Shown here in pieces: positions 1 to 7,967 of a stretch of DNA of 45,883 nucleotides. This stretch comes from an uncultured Chloroflexota bacterium (GTDB lineage: Bacteria > Chloroflexota > Dehalococcoidia > UBA2979): NCBI GenBank assembly GCA_903917615.1, contig CAIXBH010000040.1, forward strand, positions 1 through 45,883. The letters are read 5' to 3'. The number at the start of each line of letters is the position of its first letter. The stretch's first letter is position 1. The translations under genes and the position numbers were made by a program. The notes under the pieces were generated by a model. That model searched no databases. It was not told the origin of the DNA and saw nothing but the letters and a program-made list of their open reading frames with translations.

Positions 1-2348
1 CCACGCAGGCACGGACACCGACGCCGACCGCAACGCCGACGGTCACGACGCCACCGAACGCGCCGACATCGAACCCCGGGGCGACGGCCGCAGGGGCGGG
101 CCTCGTCGCGGCGGGCGGGGCTGCCGCCGGCTACGCGACGAGCCGGCGCCGCAACGGTGGGACGACCTCGGCGCCGGATGACGGCACCGGCACACCGCCG
201 ACGGAGCCGCCTCCGCTCACGCAGCCGAAGGTCACAGTCGAGATCGGCGGTCAGAGCACCACGTCGCTGACGCAGGAGGGAGCGTTCAAGGTCGTGGTCG
301 AGACGCCTCGACCGGCGAGCGGCGATCCGCCCGAGACCATCGACGTGACGCTCCGCTCTACGGAGACCGGCAAGACGGAGACCGTGAGGCTGCGGTGGAA
401 TGGCAGCGTGCGCGGCAACGTCCGCTACGAGAGCAACCCGCTGACGCTCGACCGTGGCGGCGTCGGCGGCGGCAAGGCGAACGTCCTCGGACTGGAGTTC
501 TCCACCGGGGACATGCACCGCGGGCTCAGCGGCACCCCGAACGGAACCGACATCGTCATGTCGACGCCGGGCGGCACGGACGCCCACGTCACCGCGTTCA
601 CCACGTGGGTCCAGCAGGGCGTGGGACTGACGCAGGCGGCGATTCGCCAGTACCACCAGTTCTGGATCAACGTCGCGCAGCAGATCCGTGGCCTCCCCGA
701 CTCCGAGGGCAAACGCGACCTCCTCCGCCGCGCGGAGATGGCGATCCGGCTGGCGGGCGAGGCGACGCGCGTGGCGAACTCGGACTGGCTCGACACGCGC
801 AAGCTGACGCATCTGCAGGCGGTGCTGTCCCTGATGCAGGGCGGGCTCACACACGACCCGCGCGACGAGTACCAGTACTGGCGCAACGCCGAAGAGGCCG
901 CGCACACGATGACGCAGGACATCTTCTGGCACGGGATCGCACAGGCCACGATCGGGCTCTACAAGACGGTCGCAGACGTCAGCGGCGCTGGCGCCGCCTG
1001 GACGCTCTTCGCCGGCCGCACGATCATGAACGAGCACGCGGGCTGGGACGAGCGGCTCTTCGCCGCCCTCGACCTGGCGGGACGGCTCACGATCTTCGGG
1101 CAGGTCGAGGGCGCCATCGGCGGCACGCTGGACCGCATGGCGATGAGCGAGGTGCGCGTCGCGGCGACCGAGGCGAAGGCGCTGACGGCCGCCGAGCAGG
1201 AAGCGCTGAACGCGCGACGCGCCGAGGAGGCCGTCGCCTCGGCCGCGTACGCAGATCGCCAGGCGGCGAACCGCGCTGCGCAGGGCCTCGTGCCGCCACC
1301 GGCGGCCGCTGCGGGCACGGCCGAGCATGTGGGCACCGAGGCGCGTGACGCGTTCAACGCGATCAAGAACGACCCGAATGCGATGCAGGCTGCGAAGGAC
1401 GCCGCCGCCTCGGCCGCGTACAACGAGCGCCAGACCGCGAATCGCAACATCCGCAATCTCATCCCGGACAACCCGAACACGACGGGGCCGAGCGGGAAGG
1501 CGCTGCTGGGGGCGGACGGCGGCACGCCGGTCAACTTCACGGAAGACTTCGGCCTCCTGCGCAACCGTGCGCGCAACTTCCAGGCAGTCTCGGAGCAGTA
1601 CGGCGTGCGCATCCGCGTGCGCCCGGCGAACGTCGAATCGCTGGAGACGATGTCCCGCGGCTACCCGCCGAAGCACGTGAAGATCAAGTCGAAGACGATC
1701 AACGCCATCGACGAGGTCATCGGTGCGCCCAAGGATTCGCAGGGTCTCGTCGGCTATTTCGAGCCGAAGCTCCCTCCGCGCCCGGCCGGGATGACAGATG
1801 CCACATGGGACAAGGTGCTGCGCCGATTCGACCAGCGCATGGAGGAGTTCCGCGATCAGGCGAAGGCGATGAAGGAACTCGAGGAAAAGGGACTGGTGAC
1901 CGTCAAGGACGGCCGCGTCATCGATACTGGCCTTTCCAACACTCGCCTGAAGGACGGACACCTCGAGGCCATCCCTGGGACGGCCGAGGGCGGCACGGGC
2001 AATCCCTTCACGGGTGACCACGACATGTGGGATATCACTAGGGCGGACGGCTCACCCCTCGATGCCGCGACGAAGGCGAAGGTCGAAGCGAGCCTGATGG
2101 ATGGATCGGCGCGCACGCAGCACGGCCCGCACAAGGACTGGCGACCGCAAACGGACGTCGATCGTGGCATCGACCAGCGCATCCGCGACAGTCACCGCGG
2201 CGTCGAAGGCGCAGACGGAGTCGTACGACCGGCAGACACCCCGATCGTGGGCGAATGGGGGGACCCGGAGACAATCCGAGGCGAGGCCCTCGTCGAGTTC
2301 TCGCCCGGCCAGCAGCCCGTCGTCTCCTACGAGACGGGGGCACGATGA
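1..2348 (+). CDS. Large multidomain protein, 5'-truncated by the window edge. Contains a Pro/Thr linker, a Gly/Ala hydrophobic segment followed by RRR, a pre-toxin TG-like region and a C-terminal EF/CyaA/ExoY-like nucleotidyl cyclase domain
   Basis: The frame of ORF 294..2348 is open back to position 3 (TQARTPTPTATPT...). The C-terminal motifs RVRPAN...GYPPKHVKIKSKT (1659-1697), PFTGDHDMW (2004-2030) and QHG (2118-2126) match, in order, the edema factor motifs LFRPVN...GVATKGLNVHGKS, PLTADYDLF and NHG. Confidence 0.75.
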   Translation, partial: TQARTPTPTATPTVTTPPNAPTSNPGATAAGAGLVAAGGAAAGYATSRRRNGGTTSAPDDGTGTPPTEPPPLTQPKVTVEIGGQSTTSLTQEGAFKVVVETPRPASGDPPETIDVTLRSTETGKTETVRLRWNGSVRGNVRYESNPLTLDRGGVGGGKANVLGLEFSTGDMHRGLSGTPNGTDIVMSTPGGTDAHVTAFTTWVQQGVGLTQAAIRQYHQFWINVAQQIRGLPDSEGKRDLLRRAEMAIRLAGEATRVANSDWLDTRKLTHLQAVLSLMQGGLTHDPRDEYQYWRNAEEAAHTMTQDIFWHGIAQATIGLYKTVADVSGAGAAWTLFAGRTIMNEHAGWDERLFAALDLAGRLTIFGQVEGAIGGTLDRMAMSEVRVAATEAKALTAAEQEALNARRAEEAVASAAYADRQAANRAAQGLVPPPAAAAGTAEHVGTEARDAFNAIKNDPNAMQAAKDAAASAAYNERQTANRNIRNLIPDNPNTTGPSGKALLGADGGTPVNFTEDFGLLRNRARNFQAVSEQYGVRIRVRPANVESLETMSRGYPPKHVKIKSKTINAIDEVIGAPKDSQGLVGYFEPKLPPRPAGMTDATWDKVLRRFDQRMEEFRDQAKAMKELEEKGLVTVKDGRVIDTGLSNTRLKDGHLEAIPGTAEGGTGNPFTGDHDMWDITRADGSPLDAATKAKVEASLMDGSARTQHGPHKDWRPQTDVDRGIDQRIRDSHRGVEGADGVVRPADTPIVGEWGDPETIRGEALVEFSPGQQPVVSYETGAR
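1230..1445 (+). repeat. Two-copy internal coding repeat of about 45 nt (AVASAAYADRQAANR / AAASAAYNERQTANR)
   Basis: gccgtcgcctcggccgcgtac...cgccag at about 1230-1275 and gccgccgcctcggccgcgtac...cgccag at about 1401-1445. Confidence 0.7.
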
Positions 2349-3226
2349 CCTCCGATCGCGACCTGCTTGCCTCCATCGATCACATGCTCGCGCATCCTGA
2401 CGCGATCACGCTGCCCTCGACCACCTCGAACGACGCACGTGCGGCCGCGTCACCGCTGCGGGCACCGGAGGAGCACGTCGACACGCCGCGCGAGGCGCGC
2501 GACCGCGCCGTGCGAGTACGGGGCGGCCTGCGACAGATGCTCGACGAACTCATCGAGTCGAACGACGACGACGAGCGGCAGATGGAGCTCCTGAACGCGA
2601 TCGAGGACGCGACGGAGGCCTACCTCGCCGCGCTGCCGCGGGTCGAGATCGCGCGGTCACCGTTCACGGGTGACATCGTGGCGCTGGCAATCGACACGTA
2701 CGGCCTCGACGGGCCGTGGTGGAAATACGAGGGCGTCGTCCGTGCGTTGGACGCGCGACCCGCGACGATGCTCGCGTTCACGGGGGCGATGCGGCTGACC
2801 GCTCCGATCGAGCGCTTTACTCACCTCGCGAAGGTGGGCCCCGGCGTCCCCTATGTCCTGCCTCGACTCATGGCGATCGATGGTGTGCGCGCGGTGGTGC
2901 GTGCGGTGACGGTCGGCGCGCACCTGGGGTGGGCGATCTCATACTTCGCACCCGCGCCCGTATCGGGGGTCCGTCTCGTCAACGACTGGGGTGCCGACCA
3001 CTACGCGATCGACGGGGGCTGGGACACCGTCGCCGAGTCGACGGAGGAGCGTGACTTCGACCTGGCGCCGTGGATCCGATCGGGCCGTCTCGCGTGGATC
3101 GCGCCCGGCGATGGTGCGCTGGCGCTGCGGAGCGAGGTCGAGGGCTGCCCGTTCCTCGGCCCGGACGGTGGGCCTCTCGAGGGCACGCGTGAGGTCCAGC
3201 GTGTCGAGGAGGGCGAAGTCTTCTAG
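2345..3226 (+). CDS. Hypothetical protein (293 aa); candidate immunity protein or partner of the upstream cyclase-domain protein
   Basis: ATG at 2345 overlaps the upstream TGA (ATGA). Globular-looking sequence with motifs such as YLAALPRVEIARSPFTG, IDTYGLDGPWW and DFDLAPWI; no signal peptide. Confidence 0.75.
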   Translation: MTSDRDLLASIDHMLAHPDAITLPSTTSNDARAAASPLRAPEEHVDTPREARDRAVRVRGGLRQMLDELIESNDDDERQMELLNAIEDATEAYLAALPRVEIARSPFTGDIVALAIDTYGLDGPWWKYEGVVRALDARPATMLAFTGAMRLTAPIERFTHLAKVGPGVPYVLPRLMAIDGVRAVVRAVTVGAHLGWAISYFAPAPVSGVRLVNDWGADHYAIDGGWDTVAESTEERDFDLAPWIRSGRLAWIAPGDGALALRSEVEGCPFLGPDGGPLEGTREVQRVEEGEVF

Positions 3227-3255
3227 CGCGCTGGGGCGCGCCAGATGACGGGACG

Positions 3256-3696
3256 CTACGCGCCCGCGGCGACCCGCAGTTCATTGTTGATGAGCCGCTG
3301 CGCGACGTACTGCAGCATCTTCACCGCGACCGCGGGCTCCTTCTGTAGATGCGCGAGGAACTGCCAGCGATCCAGTCCAAGGCAGGTGGTCCGCTCCGCC
3401 GCTCGCACCGTCGCGGTGCGCTTCCACTCGCCGAGGAGCGCGAGCTCGCCGAACGGCTGCCCGACGCCGAGCGTGGCCAGCACCTTCGCGTGGTCGGTGC
3501 CTTCGGCCTCAATCACCTCGGCGCGTCCGTTGAGCACGACGTAGAGGCCGCTGCCGATCTCGCCCGCCTCGGCGATCGCCTCGCCGGGCTGGAACGTCTT
3601 CTGGAAAGTGAACGCCGCAAGCGCGTCCAGCGCCGCACCGTCCAGGCCGGTGAAGACCGGGACGTGTCCGAGCACGTGACTGCTGTCGTTGGTCAT
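3256..3696 (-). CDS. Stand-alone cyclic nucleotide-binding domain protein
   Basis: VPVFTGL start, GEAIAEAGEIGSGLYVVLNG, phosphate-binding cassette FGELALLGEWKRTATVRA; 146 aa with no HTH. Confidence 0.92.
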   Translation of the reverse strand: MTNDSSHVLGHVPVFTGLDGAALDALAAFTFQKTFQPGEAIAEAGEIGSGLYVVLNGRAEVIEAEGTDHAKVLATLGVGQPFGELALLGEWKRTATVRAAERTTCLGLDRWQFLAHLQKEPAVAVKMLQYVAQRLINNELRVAAGA

Positions 3697-3888
3697 CTCG
3701 GGGGGCTCCTTGGTCCGCGCTCCGGCGCGTCAGCATGCGGCGATCCGGGGGGCAGCGGCAGAGGGCCGCGCGCGGTACCTCCTCTACGGTAGCCGGTGGG
3801 GCCAGCGGGCGTGTCGCACACCCACCGCGACCGGTCGCGCGATAGGATGCGGCAGCACCGCGGGTTCGCCGAGCGAGCGAGGGTTCCG

Positions 3889-4284
3889 ATGACTGCCGAG
3901 CACCACGACATGAGCAAACCGTTCGTCGTGAAGGCACAGCCGCCCTCAACGACCATCCAGACGCGTGGCATGGAGCGAGTGCCCGGAGTCACATCGGACA
4001 CCGTGGGCGCCTCGCGCCTCTGGCTGGGAACGGTCACGGCTGCGCCGAACGAGAAGGGCCCGCCCCATCACCACGGCGAAGCCGAGACGGGCGTGTACGT
4101 CCTGCGCGGCCGGCTCCGCGTCTACTTCGGCGAGGACTTCAAGGAGTTCATCGAGGCGGGGCCGGGCGACTTCATCTTCGTGCCGCCCCACGTGCATCAC
4201 ATCGAGGAGAATCCATACGACGAGCTCTACGAGGCCGTCCTCGCGCGCTCGCCCGACAACATCGTGGTGAACCTCGGCGACTAG
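3889..4284 (+). CDS. Cupin domain protein (RmlC-like)
   Basis: PHHHGEAET and GDFIFVPPHVHHIEEN cupin motifs; ATG at 3889 after gagggt. Confidence 0.88.
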   Translation: MTAEHHDMSKPFVVKAQPPSTTIQTRGMERVPGVTSDTVGASRLWLGTVTAAPNEKGPPHHHGEAETGVYVLRGRLRVYFGEDFKEFIEAGPGDFIFVPPHVHHIEENPYDELYEAVLARSPDNIVVNLGD

Positions 4285-4321
4285 CCGCACAACGAAGCGC
4301 GACCACTGCACCGGAGGCGAT

Positions 4322-4798
4322 ATGCCCTTCGCACTTTCCAGCATGCAACTGACGAGCCCGGCATTCGCATCGGGGGGCAACATCCCGACGAAGCACACCG
4401 GGGAGGGCGAAGACGTCTCGCCTGCCCTGCGCTGGACAGATCTGCCGGAAGGCACGCGCTCACTCGCGATCATTTGCCATGACCCGGATGCGCCGCTCGT
4501 CGCGGGAGGCGCGTACGGCTTCGTGCACTGGGTCGCCTACAACATCCCCGCCACTGCGACGGGCCTCGACGAGGGAAGCGACGCCTTCACCAGCGGCGGC
4601 TCCGGATTCGGCCGGCCGGGGTATGGCGGGCCGATGCCCCCTCCGGATCACGGGCCGCACCACTACTTCTTCTGGCTGTTCGCCCTGAACGGCGAGCCCG
4701 ATCTCCCCGCGGGCCTCGCCATGACCGAGTTGCTCGAGCGCATCGAGCCACAGACGCTCGGCATGAACCGCCTCGTCGGCGTCTACGAGCGCCACTAG
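4322..4798 (+). CDS. YbhB/YbcL family Raf kinase inhibitor-like (PEBP) protein
   Basis: LTSPAF, SPALRW, DPDAP, FVHWV, YGGPMPP, HHYFF motifs. Confidence 0.93.
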   Translation: MPFALSSMQLTSPAFASGGNIPTKHTGEGEDVSPALRWTDLPEGTRSLAIICHDPDAPLVAGGAYGFVHWVAYNIPATATGLDEGSDAFTSGGSGFGRPGYGGPMPPPDHGPHHYFFWLFALNGEPDLPAGLAMTELLERIEPQTLGMNRLVGVYERH

Positions 4799-6837: not shown

Positions 6838-7719
6838 CTATGCCTGCGCTGCCTCCGCGAAGCCGTAGAGCCGCGCGGGGTTGTCCACCATGATGCGTCG
6901 ACGCGCCGCCTCGTCCGGGGCCCACGTGCCGAGCAGATTGAAGAGCTCGACGGAGTCGACCTCGTCGAACGAGAGGTGCGGGAAGTCGCTGCCCCAGATC
7001 ACGCGATCGGGCGCGGCCTCGATGACCGCGCGCGCGTGCGCAGCGGCGTCGGCATAGCCCGGTGCGGTCGACATGCGGTAGACGCCGGTCAACTTCACCC
7101 AGCAGCGCCCGTCGCCCTGGCGCAGCAGGTCCAGCAGCTCATGGAACCCCGGCTGGTCCACGCCGTCCTTCGCCAGGAACATGCCCATGTGCGCGACCGA
7201 GAAGTCGACGGGCAGCGCACGCATCCTCGGCAGCACCGCCCGGGTGAACCAGCCCGGCCCGAGGAAGTCGAGGTGCCACCCGCGCGCGGCGCACCGCTCG
7301 GCGATGCGCTCGACACGTGGCCAGAGCGCGTCGACGAGGCCCGCCTCGAACGCCTGGACCGGCGACACGTTGATCCGTACGCCCCGGACACCCACCGCGT
7401 GCATGCGGTCGAGGTCCGCCTCGGCGATCTCCTCGTCGATGTCGACGATGCCTCGCGCCCGCTCGGTTCCGACGCGCTCGAGGGCGTCGAGCAGGCAGGA
7501 GTTATCGCGCCCGTACCCGCTCGGCTGCACGAACACGTGGCGCTCGATGCCGAGCAACGTCGCGAACTCGAGGTACTCCTCGAGCCGTGCGAAGGGGTGC
7601 GCATAGCGGGGGCTCGCAGTGCCCGGCGGGAAGCGGTCAGCCGGGCCGAAGATGTGGAAGTGGGCGTCGCACGCGCCACGCGCAGGCGTCCAGGCGGGCT
7701 CGGCAGTGTGGTGCGGCAC
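6838..7719 (-). CDS. Amidohydrolase 2 family protein (LigI/2-pyrone-4,6-dicarboxylate lactonase-like)
   Basis: CDAHFHIFG, VQPSGYGRDN, GVRGVRIN, WVKLTG, WGSDFPH; probable GTG start at 7719 after gagggag. Confidence 0.88.
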   Translation of the reverse strand: MPHHTAEPAWTPARGACDAHFHIFGPADRFPPGTASPRYAHPFARLEEYLEFATLLGIERHVFVQPSGYGRDNSCLLDALERVGTERARGIVDIDEEIAEADLDRMHAVGVRGVRINVSPVQAFEAGLVDALWPRVERIAERCAARGWHLDFLGPGWFTRAVLPRMRALPVDFSVAHMGMFLAKDGVDQPGFHELLDLLRQGDGRCWVKLTGVYRMSTAPGYADAAAHARAVIEAAPDRVIWGSDFPHLSFDEVDSVELFNLLGTWAPDEAARRRIMVDNPARLYGFAEAAQA

Positions 7720-7892
7720 GCGGGCTCCCTCGCTCCGCGCAATCACGCGGCGTCCGCGAGTTTAGCAGCGAGATGGGCGCGCACCGCGGCGCAGCGACGT
7801 CTCGCTACGCCGCGATCTGCTTATGTCTCTGATCCGAGCCGCTCGCGATGGGTTCCGGCTGCGCTCGATCCTCGGTAACATCGGGAGGACGT

Positions 7893-7967
7893 GGCAGGGT
7901 AGCTCAGTGGTAGAGCAGCGGACTCATAAGCCGTTGGTCGAGAGTTCAAATCTCTCCCCTGCTACCA
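7893..7967 (+). tRNA. tRNA with CAT anticodon, most likely elongator tRNA-Met (tRNA-Ile2 not excluded)
   Basis: Acceptor stem GGCAGGG/CCCTGCT plus ACCA, D-arm AGCTCAGTGGTAGAGC, anticodon loop CTCATAA, T-loop GTTCAAATC. Lacks the initiator GGG/CCC anticodon stem; A4:T69 argues against Ile2. Confidence 0.95.

What the first reader, a model, noticed from the sequence alone, without database searches (positions are those of the whole stretch)
1..3696. Candidate three-part system: class II cyclase protein, coupled partner gene and stand-alone cNMP-binding protein
Seen in sequence: the cyclase-domain gene is coupled through ATGA to a 293-aa unknown gene, and a 146-aa cNMP-binding-domain-only gene converges on them 29 nt later. 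Two models follow by inference. (a) A polymorphic toxin-immunity pair whose warhead produces cNMP, with the cNMP-binding protein acting as sink or sensor. (b) A membrane-anchored signalling or defence module that repurposes a class II cyclase, analogous in logic to Pycsar (which uses class III cyclases with cNMP effectors). The binding cassette reads R-T-A, a pattern associated with cGMP tolerance in PKG-type domains, and ExoY-type enzymes make cGMP; this is weak support only. Caveat: stand-alone cNMP proteins are common, so the adjacency could be chance.
Basis: inference. Interest (0 to 1): 0.82.

Follow-up and report, generated by a model that had tools for sequence, protein, structure and literature searches.

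The report
Cyclase-like toxin domain with dedicated partner
A large membrane protein ending in a shrunken relative of the anthrax/pertussis-type cyclase toxins is fused in an operon to a partner protein of unknown fold, a pairing repeated across many bacterial phyla and some archaea, while the neighbouring cyclic-nucleotide-binding gene appears to be a chance neighbour.

Summary
ORF A (3..2348, 5'-open), ATGA overlap at 2345-2348, ORF B (2345..3226, 293 aa) and a convergent cNMP-binding gene C (3256..3696, 146 aa) 29 nt later are all there. A continues on contig C112 and is about 1,206 aa in all.

A's last ~290 aa are a compact, divergent class II (EF/CyaA/ExoY-type) cyclase fold. It falls below Pfam's cut-off, but a family profile and an AlphaFold model hit only class II cyclases, and the Lys and Asp-x-Asp motifs are invariant.

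B (family PF28040, no known fold) is the domain's dedicated partner. In 79 B loci from many phyla and two archaea, 51 have the cyclase-like domain at the C-end of the gene directly upstream, and 8 more have it nearby. Relatives carry the domain in WXG100- and ART-bearing giant toxins, and B also occurs as an orphan, once beside a SUKH-3 immunity gene. The best reading is a two-gene toxin/immunity (antitoxin) cassette (about 0.55).

The third part is not supported. No cNMP-binding gene occurs in any of the 79 loci, nor on the A-B contigs of two same-genus genomes. C's orthologues instead sit next to class III cyclases. R-T-A is a common cassette variant.

The parts
1..33 (+). Contig junction: identical to the last 33 bases of contig C112, whose open frame continues in phase into ORF A
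   Evidence: Collinearity with single ORFs of L005/L006: N-half aligns to aa 63-460 and the window part to aa 554-1222.
3..2348 (+). Gene A, C-terminal 781 aa of a ~1,206-aa membrane protein. The first 435 aa lie on C112 (L004:8695-9999).
   Evidence: Full-length relatives of 1119-1145 aa.
81..152 (+). Conserved Gly/Ala-rich weakly hydrophobic segment (…LVAAGGAAAGYATS) followed by RRR. Possibly a second membrane span. An acidic run follows it in the orthologues.
   Evidence: Sequence. The same motif is in L005, L006 and L007. It is below the Kyte-Doolittle threshold used there, so TM status is inferred.
189..1187 (+). Conserved middle region (aa 63-395), shared with L005-L008, L012 and L044. 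No family assigned.
   Evidence: No Pfam match.
1239..1445 (+). Two copies of a 12-aa motif SAAY..RQ.ANR (1239-1274 and 1410-1445) in the linker before the cyclase-like domain
1470..2345 (+). Compact class II (EF/CyaA/ExoY-type) nucleotidyl-cyclase-like domain
   Evidence: Family of 618 representatives. Profile against PDB: top 12-14 hits are all class II cyclases, E down to 7e-7. AF2 pLDDT 94.6. Foldseek: every listed hit down to E 2e-3 is a class II cyclase, TM 0.26-0.39.
1671..1697 (+). K-H-V-K-I-K-S-K-T: Lys motif aligned with CyaA K58/H63/K65 and with the K..K.KS of Vibrio ExoY-like domains
   Evidence: K75 is invariant; K68 and K73 are at least 90% conserved in 72 sequences.
2013..2024 (+). 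G-D-H-D: Asp-x-Asp motif aligned with CyaA D188/D190
   Evidence: D183 and D185 are invariant.
2121..2123 (+). Invariant His of the Q-H-G motif. Its equivalence to the third catalytic-site His of EF/CyaA is recalled, not aligned here.
2345..2348 (+). ATGA: start of B overlapping the stop of A
   Evidence: The same 4-nt overlap is in L005 and L006.
2345..3226 (+). Gene B, 293 aa, family PF28040. Helical hairpin plus beta-rich domain, no known fold. Putative immunity/antitoxin.
   Evidence: Linkage tally.
3256..3696 (-). Gene C, stand-alone cNMP-binding domain protein. Neighbour, not part of the conserved cassette.

Best explanation
Genes A and B form a mobile two-gene cassette.

A is a ~1,206-aa membrane protein. 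It has a cytoplasmic coiled-coil N-terminus and one strong transmembrane helix. Then comes a ~280-aa outside region with four conserved Cys and a Thr/Pro linker. A conserved Gly/Ala segment followed by Arg comes next, then a conserved middle region. At the very C-terminus sits a compact (~260-290 aa) divergent class II (EF/CyaA/ExoY-type) nucleotidyl cyclase domain with intact Lys and Asp-x-Asp motifs.

B is made from the same message through the ATGA overlap. It is a cytoplasmic protein of new fold.

Most likely the cyclase-like domain is a toxic module. It would be active without a eukaryotic cofactor and would burn NTPs and/or flood a cell with cyclic nucleotide. B would be its cognate immunity protein or antitoxin, holding it inactive in the producer.

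Shown: homology, motif conservation, conserved linkage and co-divergence.
Inferred: toxicity, neutralisation by B, which cell is hit, and the nucleotide made.

Gene C is an unrelated stand-alone cNMP receptor that happens to lie next door.
For: (1) Class II cyclase homology. Profiles of the family hit only class II cyclases at the top of the PDB list: 14 of the first 14, and 12 of the first 12 at E 7e-7 to 1.2e-3. The alignment runs K-x4-K-x-K-T onto CyaA K58/H63/K65 and GDhD onto D188/D190. The AF2 model (pLDDT 94.6) hits CyaA, EF and ExoY with probability 0.91-1.00. K75, D81, D183, D185, H218 and W224 are invariant in 72 sequences.

(2) Dedicated partner. All 75 B homologues carry PF28040. 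Of 79 B loci, 51 have the domain at the C-end of the ORF directly upstream on the same strand, and 8 have it elsewhere in the locus. The ATGA overlap is conserved in L005 and L006. Distance matrices of the domain and B correlate at r = 0.79 over 42 pairs, and 0 of 999 permutations exceed 0.20.

(3) Cassette behaviour. In L005 and L006 only A and B are shared with the window, and the flanks are unrelated housekeeping genes. A-B is patchy: B is in 3 of 41 related genomes.

(4) Toxin context. The domain sits at varied positions in proteins of up to 7,742 aa. Of 21 long relatives scanned, 2 begin with WXG100_2, 1 carries Gln_amidase plus RelA_SpoT, and 1 carries Annexin plus an ADP-ribosyltransferase exotoxin domain.

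(5) Immunity-like behaviour of B. 17 of 79 loci have B without the domain although at least 1.5 kb of upstream sequence is present. One of them sits directly after a SUKH-3 immunity protein (E 1.6e-55). One homologue is fused to an Imm35-like N-terminus (26.8 bits against a cut-off of 27.5).

(6) From established knowledge (recalled): EF, CyaA and ExoY need host calmodulin or actin and have no immunity genes. A version tied to a neutraliser is what one expects if it is active inside bacteria.
Against: No secretion or trafficking domain is recognised in A. No WXG100 gene was found in the 88%-complete genome.

If the conserved Gly/Ala segment plus RRR is a second span, the cyclase domain faces the producer's own cytoplasm, like a receptor. 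Several relatives have 4-10 hydrophobic peaks upstream of the domain, and others are ~300-aa stand-alone forms. These architectures look more like membrane enzymes or TA modules than exported toxins.

The N-terminal scaffold was not seen with any other C-terminal domain: 3 of 3 longer homologues carry the same domain. The hallmark 'same delivery part, different warheads' is therefore not met for this clade.

B has 27 invariant columns across phyla, which is unusually conserved for an immunity protein and compatible with an enzyme or regulator.

Pfam PF03497 is below its cut-off for this protein, and TM-scores to solved cyclases are only 0.26-0.39.

2 of the 5 related genomes that hold the domain lack B (G013, G021).
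Confidence: 0.55

Rival explanations
1. Endogenous membrane-anchored signalling or defence module. A would be a receptor-like protein with an outside Cys-containing sensor loop between two spans and a cytoplasmic class II-type cyclase output. B would be its regulator, or the effector or inhibitor that sets its activity. The product would act inside the producer, as a second messenger or as an abortive-infection trigger.
For: One strong TM, a conserved Gly/Ala segment followed by Arg (positive-inside), and four conserved Cys in the region between them, all conserved in L005-L007. Polytopic hydrophobic N-terminal parts occur in L009, L023, L028, L031, L038 and L054. No secretion domain or WXG100 was found. 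The N-terminal scaffold is always combined with this one domain. B is highly conserved.
Against: The same domain-B pair occurs with WXG100_2-, ART-, Gln-amidase- and RelA/SpoT-bearing giant proteins. B occurs alone in 17 of 79 loci, once beside SUKH-3, and an orphan effector or regulator makes little sense. No PADLOC model matches A or B. The second span is weak (mean hydropathy about 1.0, below the threshold used).
Confidence: 0.22
2. B is a cognate activator or cofactor rather than an inhibitor. Class II cyclases need a protein cofactor (calmodulin, actin), and here the bacterium would encode its own.
For: Strict co-occurrence and translational coupling. Co-divergence at r = 0.79. Strong conservation of B. 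From recalled knowledge, every studied class II cyclase is cofactor-activated.
Against: The domain lacks roughly 100-240 aa relative to the solved enzymes (292 aa against chains of 351-498). The model is confident on its own. Orphan B genes and the SUKH-3 and Imm35 associations point to immunity. Two related genomes have the domain without B.
Confidence: 0.08
3. Three-part system as proposed by the reader. The cNMP-binding protein C would sense or soak up the cyclase product. This could be a lineage-specific rewiring in which the class II-type cyclase replaced the class III cyclase that accompanies C's orthologues.
For: C has the canonical FGELAL…RTA cassette. C's only two close orthologues lie 1.4-3.6 kb from class III cyclases, so this CNB protein does tend to sit near a cyclase. 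No class III cyclase was found in the own genome, although it has 3 CNB genes.
Against: 0 of 79 B loci (1.09 Mb) hold a CNB gene at E <= 0.01. In G007 and G008 the PF00027 matches are on other contigs than A-B. C is convergent to B and divergent from the cupin gene, so it is its own transcription unit. 19 of 30 CNB-bearing related genomes also lack a detectable class III cyclase, so that absence is ordinary here, and the genome is only 88% complete. A stoichiometric binder is a poor defence against an enzyme (inference).
Confidence: 0.07

Closest known systems
Class II adenylate/nucleotidyl cyclase toxins: anthrax EF, Bordetella CyaA, Pseudomonas ExoY, Vibrio MARTX ExoY-like modules (Pfam PF03497)
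   Same: Same fold family by profile and structure search. The Lys-rich motif (K-x4-K-x-K-[ST], ExoY-like with Lys at the CyaA H63 position) and the [TG]-D-x-D motif are conserved. The domain is used as a module inside very large multidomain proteins.
   Different: The domain is much smaller (~260-290 aa) and falls below Pfam's cut-off. It is found in free-living Chloroflexota, Actinomycetes, many other phyla and two methanogen MAGs rather than animal pathogens. It is tied to a downstream partner gene, which the known toxins lack (recalled). Cofactor dependence and product are unknown.
Polymorphic toxin / immunity pairs whose toxin attacks the nucleotide pool (for example the (p)ppApp synthetase Tas1 with its immunity protein; recalled, cited in PMC13460014's reference list)
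   Same: C-terminal enzymatic domain, adjacent small neutraliser gene, orphan neutraliser genes, and co-occurrence with WXG100, ART and RelA/SpoT modules in relatives.
   Different: A different enzyme fold. For the window's own protein no delivery domain is recognised, and its N-terminal scaffold is not shared with other warheads.
Pycsar / CBASS (cyclase plus nucleotide-sensing effector defence systems)
   Same: C's CNB domain matches the CNB part of Pycsar effector models.
   Different: Those systems use class III-like or CD-NTase cyclases and effectors with a killing domain fused to the sensor. Here the cyclase is class II-type. C is a bare CNB domain, is not conserved with A-B, and no PADLOC model matches A or B.

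Membership tests
Class II cyclase toxins (PF03497, EF/CyaA/ExoY) | Scores above Pfam's gathering threshold for PF03497 | tested here: not met
   15.0 bits (whole ORF) and 17.8-18.0 bits (domain alone) against a cut-off of 25. 4 of 28 family members reach E <= 0.01, best 2.8e-6.
Class II cyclase toxins (PF03497, EF/CyaA/ExoY) | Profile-level sequence homology to solved class II cyclases | tested here: met
   72-sequence profile: the top 12 PDB hits are all class II cyclases, E 7.2e-7 to 1.2e-3. 28-sequence profile: top 14.
Class II cyclase toxins (PF03497, EF/CyaA/ExoY) | Same three-dimensional fold | tested here: inconclusive
   By Foldseek, all listed hits to E 2e-3 are CyaA, EF or ExoY with probability 0.91-1.00, and the next hit is at E 0.1. 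But TM-scores are only 0.26-0.39 and rmsd 13-20 A. This fits a shared core with large deletions or domain shifts.
Class II cyclase toxins (PF03497, EF/CyaA/ExoY) | Catalytic Lys pair and Asp-x-Asp metal site | tested here: met
   KHVKIKSKT (1671-1697) and GDHD (2013-2024). They align to CyaA K58/K65 and D188/D190 and are invariant or at least 90% conserved.
Class II cyclase toxins (PF03497, EF/CyaA/ExoY) | Activation by a eukaryotic host cofactor; cyclase activity | not testable with these tools
   Needs biochemistry.
Polymorphic toxin-immunity systems | Toxin domain at the extreme C-terminus, immunity gene immediately downstream on the same strand | tested here: met
   The window itself, plus 51 of 79 loci.
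Polymorphic toxin-immunity systems | Recognised N-terminal secretion or trafficking domain | tested here: not met
   None in A or its N-half. No WXG100 in the genome. Among 21 long relatives, only 2 carry WXG100_2.
Polymorphic toxin-immunity systems | Same delivery scaffold carrying alternative C-terminal toxin domains | tested here: not met
   3 of 3 longer homologues of the N-half and 7 of 7 full-length homologues carry the same domain. This is a small sample, and the tool warns that finding none is weak evidence.
Polymorphic toxin-immunity systems | Orphan immunity genes and association with other immunity genes | tested here: met
   17 of 79 loci have B without the domain. L078's B follows a SUKH-3 protein, E 1.6e-55. 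P0038 has an Imm35-like N-terminus just under the cut-off.
Polymorphic toxin-immunity systems | Toxicity of the domain and neutralisation by direct binding of the partner | not testable with these tools
   Needs expression/rescue and binding assays.
PF28040 (family of B) | Match to the Pfam model | tested here: inconclusive
   The precomputed annotation lists PF28040.1 on all 75 homologues, including the identical P0002. The model is absent from the local Pfam copy, so its name and curated description could not be read.
Pycsar-type cyclase-effector defence | Class III-like cyclase with an adjacent cNMP-sensing effector, conserved together | tested here: not met
   The cyclase is class II-type. 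No PADLOC hit for A or B, and C matches only the CNB part of effector models. 0 of 79 loci have a CNB gene.
cNMP_binding (PF00027) for C | Pfam match above threshold with an intact phosphate-binding cassette | tested here: met
   64.1 bits against 27.5. FGELALLGEWKRTATVRA.

The most novel reading that the evidence does not exclude
The cyclase-like domain is not a weapon here but the output of a membrane receptor, making this the first class II-type cyclase used for a bacterium's own signalling or abortive defence. B would be its brake. In this genome the stand-alone CNB protein C would have been rewired to read the class II-type product; its orthologues sit beside ferredoxin-fused class III cyclases. 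That would be a non-orthologous replacement of the cyclase in a cNMP circuit.
Probability: 0.07. Interest if true: 0.85.

Novelty: new variant of a known kind. Interest (0 to 1): 0.55.

Why it matters
Class II cyclases are textbook anti-host toxins that stay silent in the bacterium until a eukaryotic cofactor switches them on. This would be a widespread, compact branch of that fold: 618 cluster representatives, many phyla and some archaea. It comes with its own neutralising partner, which implies class II cyclases that are active in prokaryotic cytoplasm. They could be used in microbe-microbe conflict or self-directed killing through the nucleotide pool.

It would also give function to PF28040, a family with no recognisable fold. 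And it offers a minimal catalytic core for understanding how the large toxins are regulated.

I found no paper in the searchable library that links class II cyclases with polymorphic toxins or immunity proteins (searches; passages read). Subscription journals and supplementary files were not visible, and Pfam's own entry for PF28040 may already say more.

Tried and rejected
1. Complex prediction on the cyclase-like domain (A4) with B (A1) gave no verdict (score 0.00 against a mark of 0.32, controls not run). It counts neither for nor against binding.
2. The PDB sequence search with the whole A ORF gave only chance hits.
3. NCBIfam and PADLOC gave nothing for A or B.
4. Fold searches of B against PDB and BFVD gave no match at E <= 1e-3. 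The best hits are helical-hairpin look-alikes.
5. The protein-atlas search on B, and on the polytopic N-part of L038, gave no usable hit.
6. PF28040 could not be looked up.
7. The search for related loci with the 27-row alignment had no conserved stretch. A 12-row alignment worked.
8. An attempt to find an 'empty site' failed. PEBP orthologues in four same-genus genomes share none of the other window genes, so gene order is too fluid to show an insertion.
9. C synteny with cupin/YbhB was not seen in G007 or G028.
10. A sigma-70 promoter and terminator scan of 2200-4400 found nothing.
11. P0187 was too long for the Pfam scan and was dropped.
12. The N-terminal 'Nfu-like' gene on C112 was named by eye only and had no PDB hit.
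13. The search of earlier findings held nothing for this place.
14. I rejected the idea that the missing class III cyclase in G000 makes A the source for the CNB proteins, because 19 of 30 CNB-bearing relatives also lack one.

Full report
**What is there.** The window is a whole contig (C40) of an 88%-complete, 315-contig genome.
- ORF A runs 3..2348 (+) and is open at the 5' end.
- ORF B runs 2345..3226 (+).
- ORF C runs 3256..3696 (-).

The ATG of B (2345-2347) overlaps the TGA of A (2346-2348), and 29 nt separate the stops of B and C. C is a single cNMP_binding domain (PF00027, E 1.2e-17). It is convergent to B and divergent from the cupin gene at 3796, so it is its own transcription unit. 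Downstream lie a cupin, a PEBP/YbhB protein and an acyl-CoA-dehydrogenase-like ORF.

**Gene A is longer than the window.** The last 33 bases of contig C112 are identical to window 1-33. The 3'-open frame L004:8695-9999 (435 aa) runs in phase into ORF A. Single ORFs of 1,223 and 1,222 aa in the two closest loci (L005, L006) align first with the C112 half (47-48% identity, aa 63-460) and then with the window half (aa 554-1222). The join is therefore real, and A is about 1,206 aa. I analysed the halves apart.

The N-half has these parts:
- a coiled-coil region;
- one strong hydrophobic helix (aa 214-232, mean hydropathy 2.57);
- a region with four conserved Cys;
- a Thr/Pro/Ser linker.

The window part opens with a conserved Gly/Ala segment (…AAGGAAAGYATS) followed by RRR. 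In the orthologues an acidic run follows it. This is possibly a second span, which would put the rest of A back in the cytoplasm.

Upstream on C112 are a RecQ helicase (E 5e-98), an Aer-like PAS protein (E 1.7e-24) and an ORF I took by eye for an Nfu-type protein (no PDB hit). There are no secretion genes there. No WXG100 gene was found in the genome.

**The cyclase-like domain.** Pfam alone does not call it: PF03497 scores 15-18 bits against a cut-off of 25. An exhaustive HMMER search with window 1470-2345 found 618 cluster representatives at E <= 1e-3 (437 at <= 1e-10). The domain lies at varied positions in proteins of 159 to 7,742 aa.

A 28-sequence profile hit 14 class II cyclases as its first 14 PDB matches. 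A 72-sequence profile hit 12 of 12 at E 7.2e-7 to 1.2e-3. The alignments place the family's K-x4-K-x-K-T on CyaA K58/H63/K65, with Lys at the His position as in the Vibrio ExoY-like chains. They place G-D-h-D on CyaA D188/D190. In the window these motifs are KHVKIKSKT (1671-1697), GDHD (2013-2024) and an invariant His in TQHGPH. K75, D81, D183, D185, H218 and W224 are invariant in 72 sequences.

AlphaFold gives a confident model (pLDDT 94.6, pTM 0.90). In Foldseek every listed PDB hit down to E 2e-3 is CyaA, EF or an ExoY, and the next hit is at E 0.1. TM-scores are only 0.26-0.39. I read this as a true but strongly reduced member of the class II fold: 292 aa against chains of 351-498 aa.

**The partner B.** All 75 homologues found carry the precomputed label PF28040.1. 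The model is not in the local Pfam copy, so I could not read its name. B has 27 invariant columns across phyla, including WIAPGD and a C-P pair. The window's copy has Ser where most homologues have Cys in ARCPFTG. Its AF2 model is confident (pLDDT 91.6): a helical hairpin plus a beta-rich body. It matches nothing in PDB or BFVD at E <= 1e-3.

**Linkage.** A scan of one genome per species found 79 loci encoding a B relative. By their record titles they come from Chloroflexota, many Actinomycetes, Dormibacterota, Gemmatimonadota, Acidobacteriota, Verrucomicrobiia, Campylobacterales, Lutibacter, Proteobacteria, Polyangia, Patescibacteria and others, and from two Methanoregulaceae MAGs. With HMMs of the two families on stop-to-stop ORFs, the 79 loci fall out as follows:

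| Arrangement | Loci |
|---|---|
| Cyclase-like domain at the C-end of the ORF directly upstream of B, same strand | 51 |
| Domain elsewhere in the locus (one apparent fusion or frameshift, two with B upstream, three on the opposite strand, two further up) | 8 |
| No domain although at least 1.5 kb upstream is present (one of these, L063, has a weak remnant, E 1.2e-4) | 17 |
| Too little upstream sequence | 3 |

The ATGA overlap recurs in L005 and L006. Pairwise distances of the domain and of B correlate at r = 0.79 over 42 pairs (the window plus 41 of the 51 adjacent loci). The 10 loci with only partial domain matches were left out. 0 of 999 label permutations exceeded 0.20. This shows inheritance as a unit, not binding.

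**Cassette behaviour.** Among 41 related genomes, B is in 3 (G000, G007, G008) and the domain is in 5 (also G013 and G021, which lack B). In L005 and L006 only A and B are shared with the window and C112. Their flanks are unrelated housekeeping genes: an oxidoreductase, DAHP synthase, an MFS transporter, a lactonase and an Ig-repeat protein.

**Toxin or signalling?**

For a toxin/immunity reading:
- Of 21 long domain-bearing relatives scanned, two start with WXG100_2 (P0091, P0177).
- P0107 combines a glutamine-deamidase toxin domain, the cyclase-like domain and a RelA/SpoT domain.
- L041 combines annexin repeats, the domain and an ADP-ribosyltransferase exotoxin domain, with B convergent 57 nt away.
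- Orphan B genes sit beside RuvA, dihydroorotate dehydrogenase and an aldo-keto reductase. In L078, B sits directly after a tandem SUKH-3 immunity protein.
- One B homologue has an Imm35-like N-terminus just under the cut-off.

Against it:
- No delivery domain is recognisable in the window's protein.
- Its N-terminal scaffold is never seen with another warhead.
- The possible two-span topology would keep the domain inside the cell.
- Several relatives have polytopic hydrophobic N-parts, and others are bare ~300-aa domains.
- B is unusually conserved.

I therefore put the toxin/immunity (or antitoxin) logic at about 0.55 and an endogenous membrane signalling or defence module at about 0.22. Whether the target is a neighbour or the producer itself is open.

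**The cNMP gene.** A profile of 14 CNB domains found none in the 79 loci (1.09 Mb; best E 0.11), while it finds C in the window at E 3e-56. In G007 and G008 the PF00027 matches lie on contigs other than those with A-B.

C has only two close orthologues among 41 relatives: G007 at 64-67% and G028 at about 50%. Their surroundings share nothing with the window. In both, however, the orthologue lies 1.4-3.6 kb from a ~245-aa ferredoxin-fused class III cyclase. The two cyclases are 73% identical to each other, and the G007 copy matches Ma1120 in PDB at E 2.6e-25. Each is preceded by a 1,184- or 1,324-aa protein.

The own genome has three CNB genes and no detectable class III cyclase or cluster homologue. 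But 19 of 30 CNB-bearing relatives also lack a class III cyclase, and the genome is incomplete.

R-T-A is in 4 of 14 CNB domains of relatives, and R-S-A/R-S-S in 6. It says nothing about cGMP.

I rate a functional tie of C to A-B at about 0.07.

**Literature.** Full-text searches combined class II or ExoY-type cyclases with polymorphic toxins, immunity or interbacterial competition. Passages were read in four papers:
- PMC12994826 and PMC13460014, where only reference-list or unrelated mentions turned up;
- the AFDB clustering preprint 10.1101/2023.03.09.531927, which reports an unannotated EF-like cluster in algae, not this family;
- PMC13483458, with no mention.

None describes this family or its partner.

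**Verdict.** The cNMP-binding gene is a neighbour by chance. The cassette is a new variant of known kinds (class II cyclase toxins; toxin-immunity pairs), and its mechanism is inferred, not shown.

Noticed in passing
L098:12-8373 (G007:C71) and L099:2636-9499 (G028:C3): A conserved cluster in two relatives. It consists of a 1,184/1,324-aa protein (55% identical, no PDB relative), a ~245-aa class III adenylyl cyclase with an N-terminal ferredoxin-like part (73% identical; Ma1120 E 2.6e-25), a 412/430-aa ORF, and the orthologue of the window's cNMP-binding protein. This may be a real cAMP circuit, and it was not found in the window's genome.
   Followed up: partly
window 1-33 and L004:9968-10000: Contigs C112 and C40 overlap by 33 identical bases and one long gene runs across in frame. 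The assembly broke inside a Thr/Pro-rich low-complexity linker.
   Followed up: yes
L008:4932-8762: In a Chloroflexia MAG the A and B reading frames run together as one open frame (protein P0082, 1,119 aa, labelled PF28040), and the end of the cyclase-like domain lies in another frame (7546-7806). This is a frameshift, a decaying copy or an assembly error.
   Followed up: no
L041:7497-15056 (-): [quoted passage not shown] The B homologue is convergent, 57 nt from its end.
   Followed up: partly
P0107 (3,378 aa): One protein combines a papain-fold glutamine deamidase toxin domain, the cyclase-like domain and a RelA/SpoT-type domain.
   Followed up: no
window 2657-2659: The window's B has Ser at the position where most homologues have Cys (ARCPFTG), so the conserved Cys pair is not intact here.
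   Followed up: no
window 1239-1274 and 1410-1445: Two copies of a 12-residue motif SAAY..RQ.ANR in the linker just before the cyclase-like domain. Meaning unknown.
   Followed up: no
L065, L081 (Patescibacteria/Saccharibacteria MAGs): B homologues without any cyclase-like domain, next to RuvA and dihydroorotate dehydrogenase. These are orphan copies in reduced genomes.
   Followed up: partly
window 7893-7967: tRNA-Met (CAT).
   Followed up: no
L066-L077 (Verrucomicrobiia, Deltaproteobacteria, Eisenbacteria and others): A divergent subgroup. These are ~380-450-aa proteins that match only the first third of the cyclase-like profile well (E 1e-8 to 1e-14), each directly upstream of a B homologue.
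   Followed up: no
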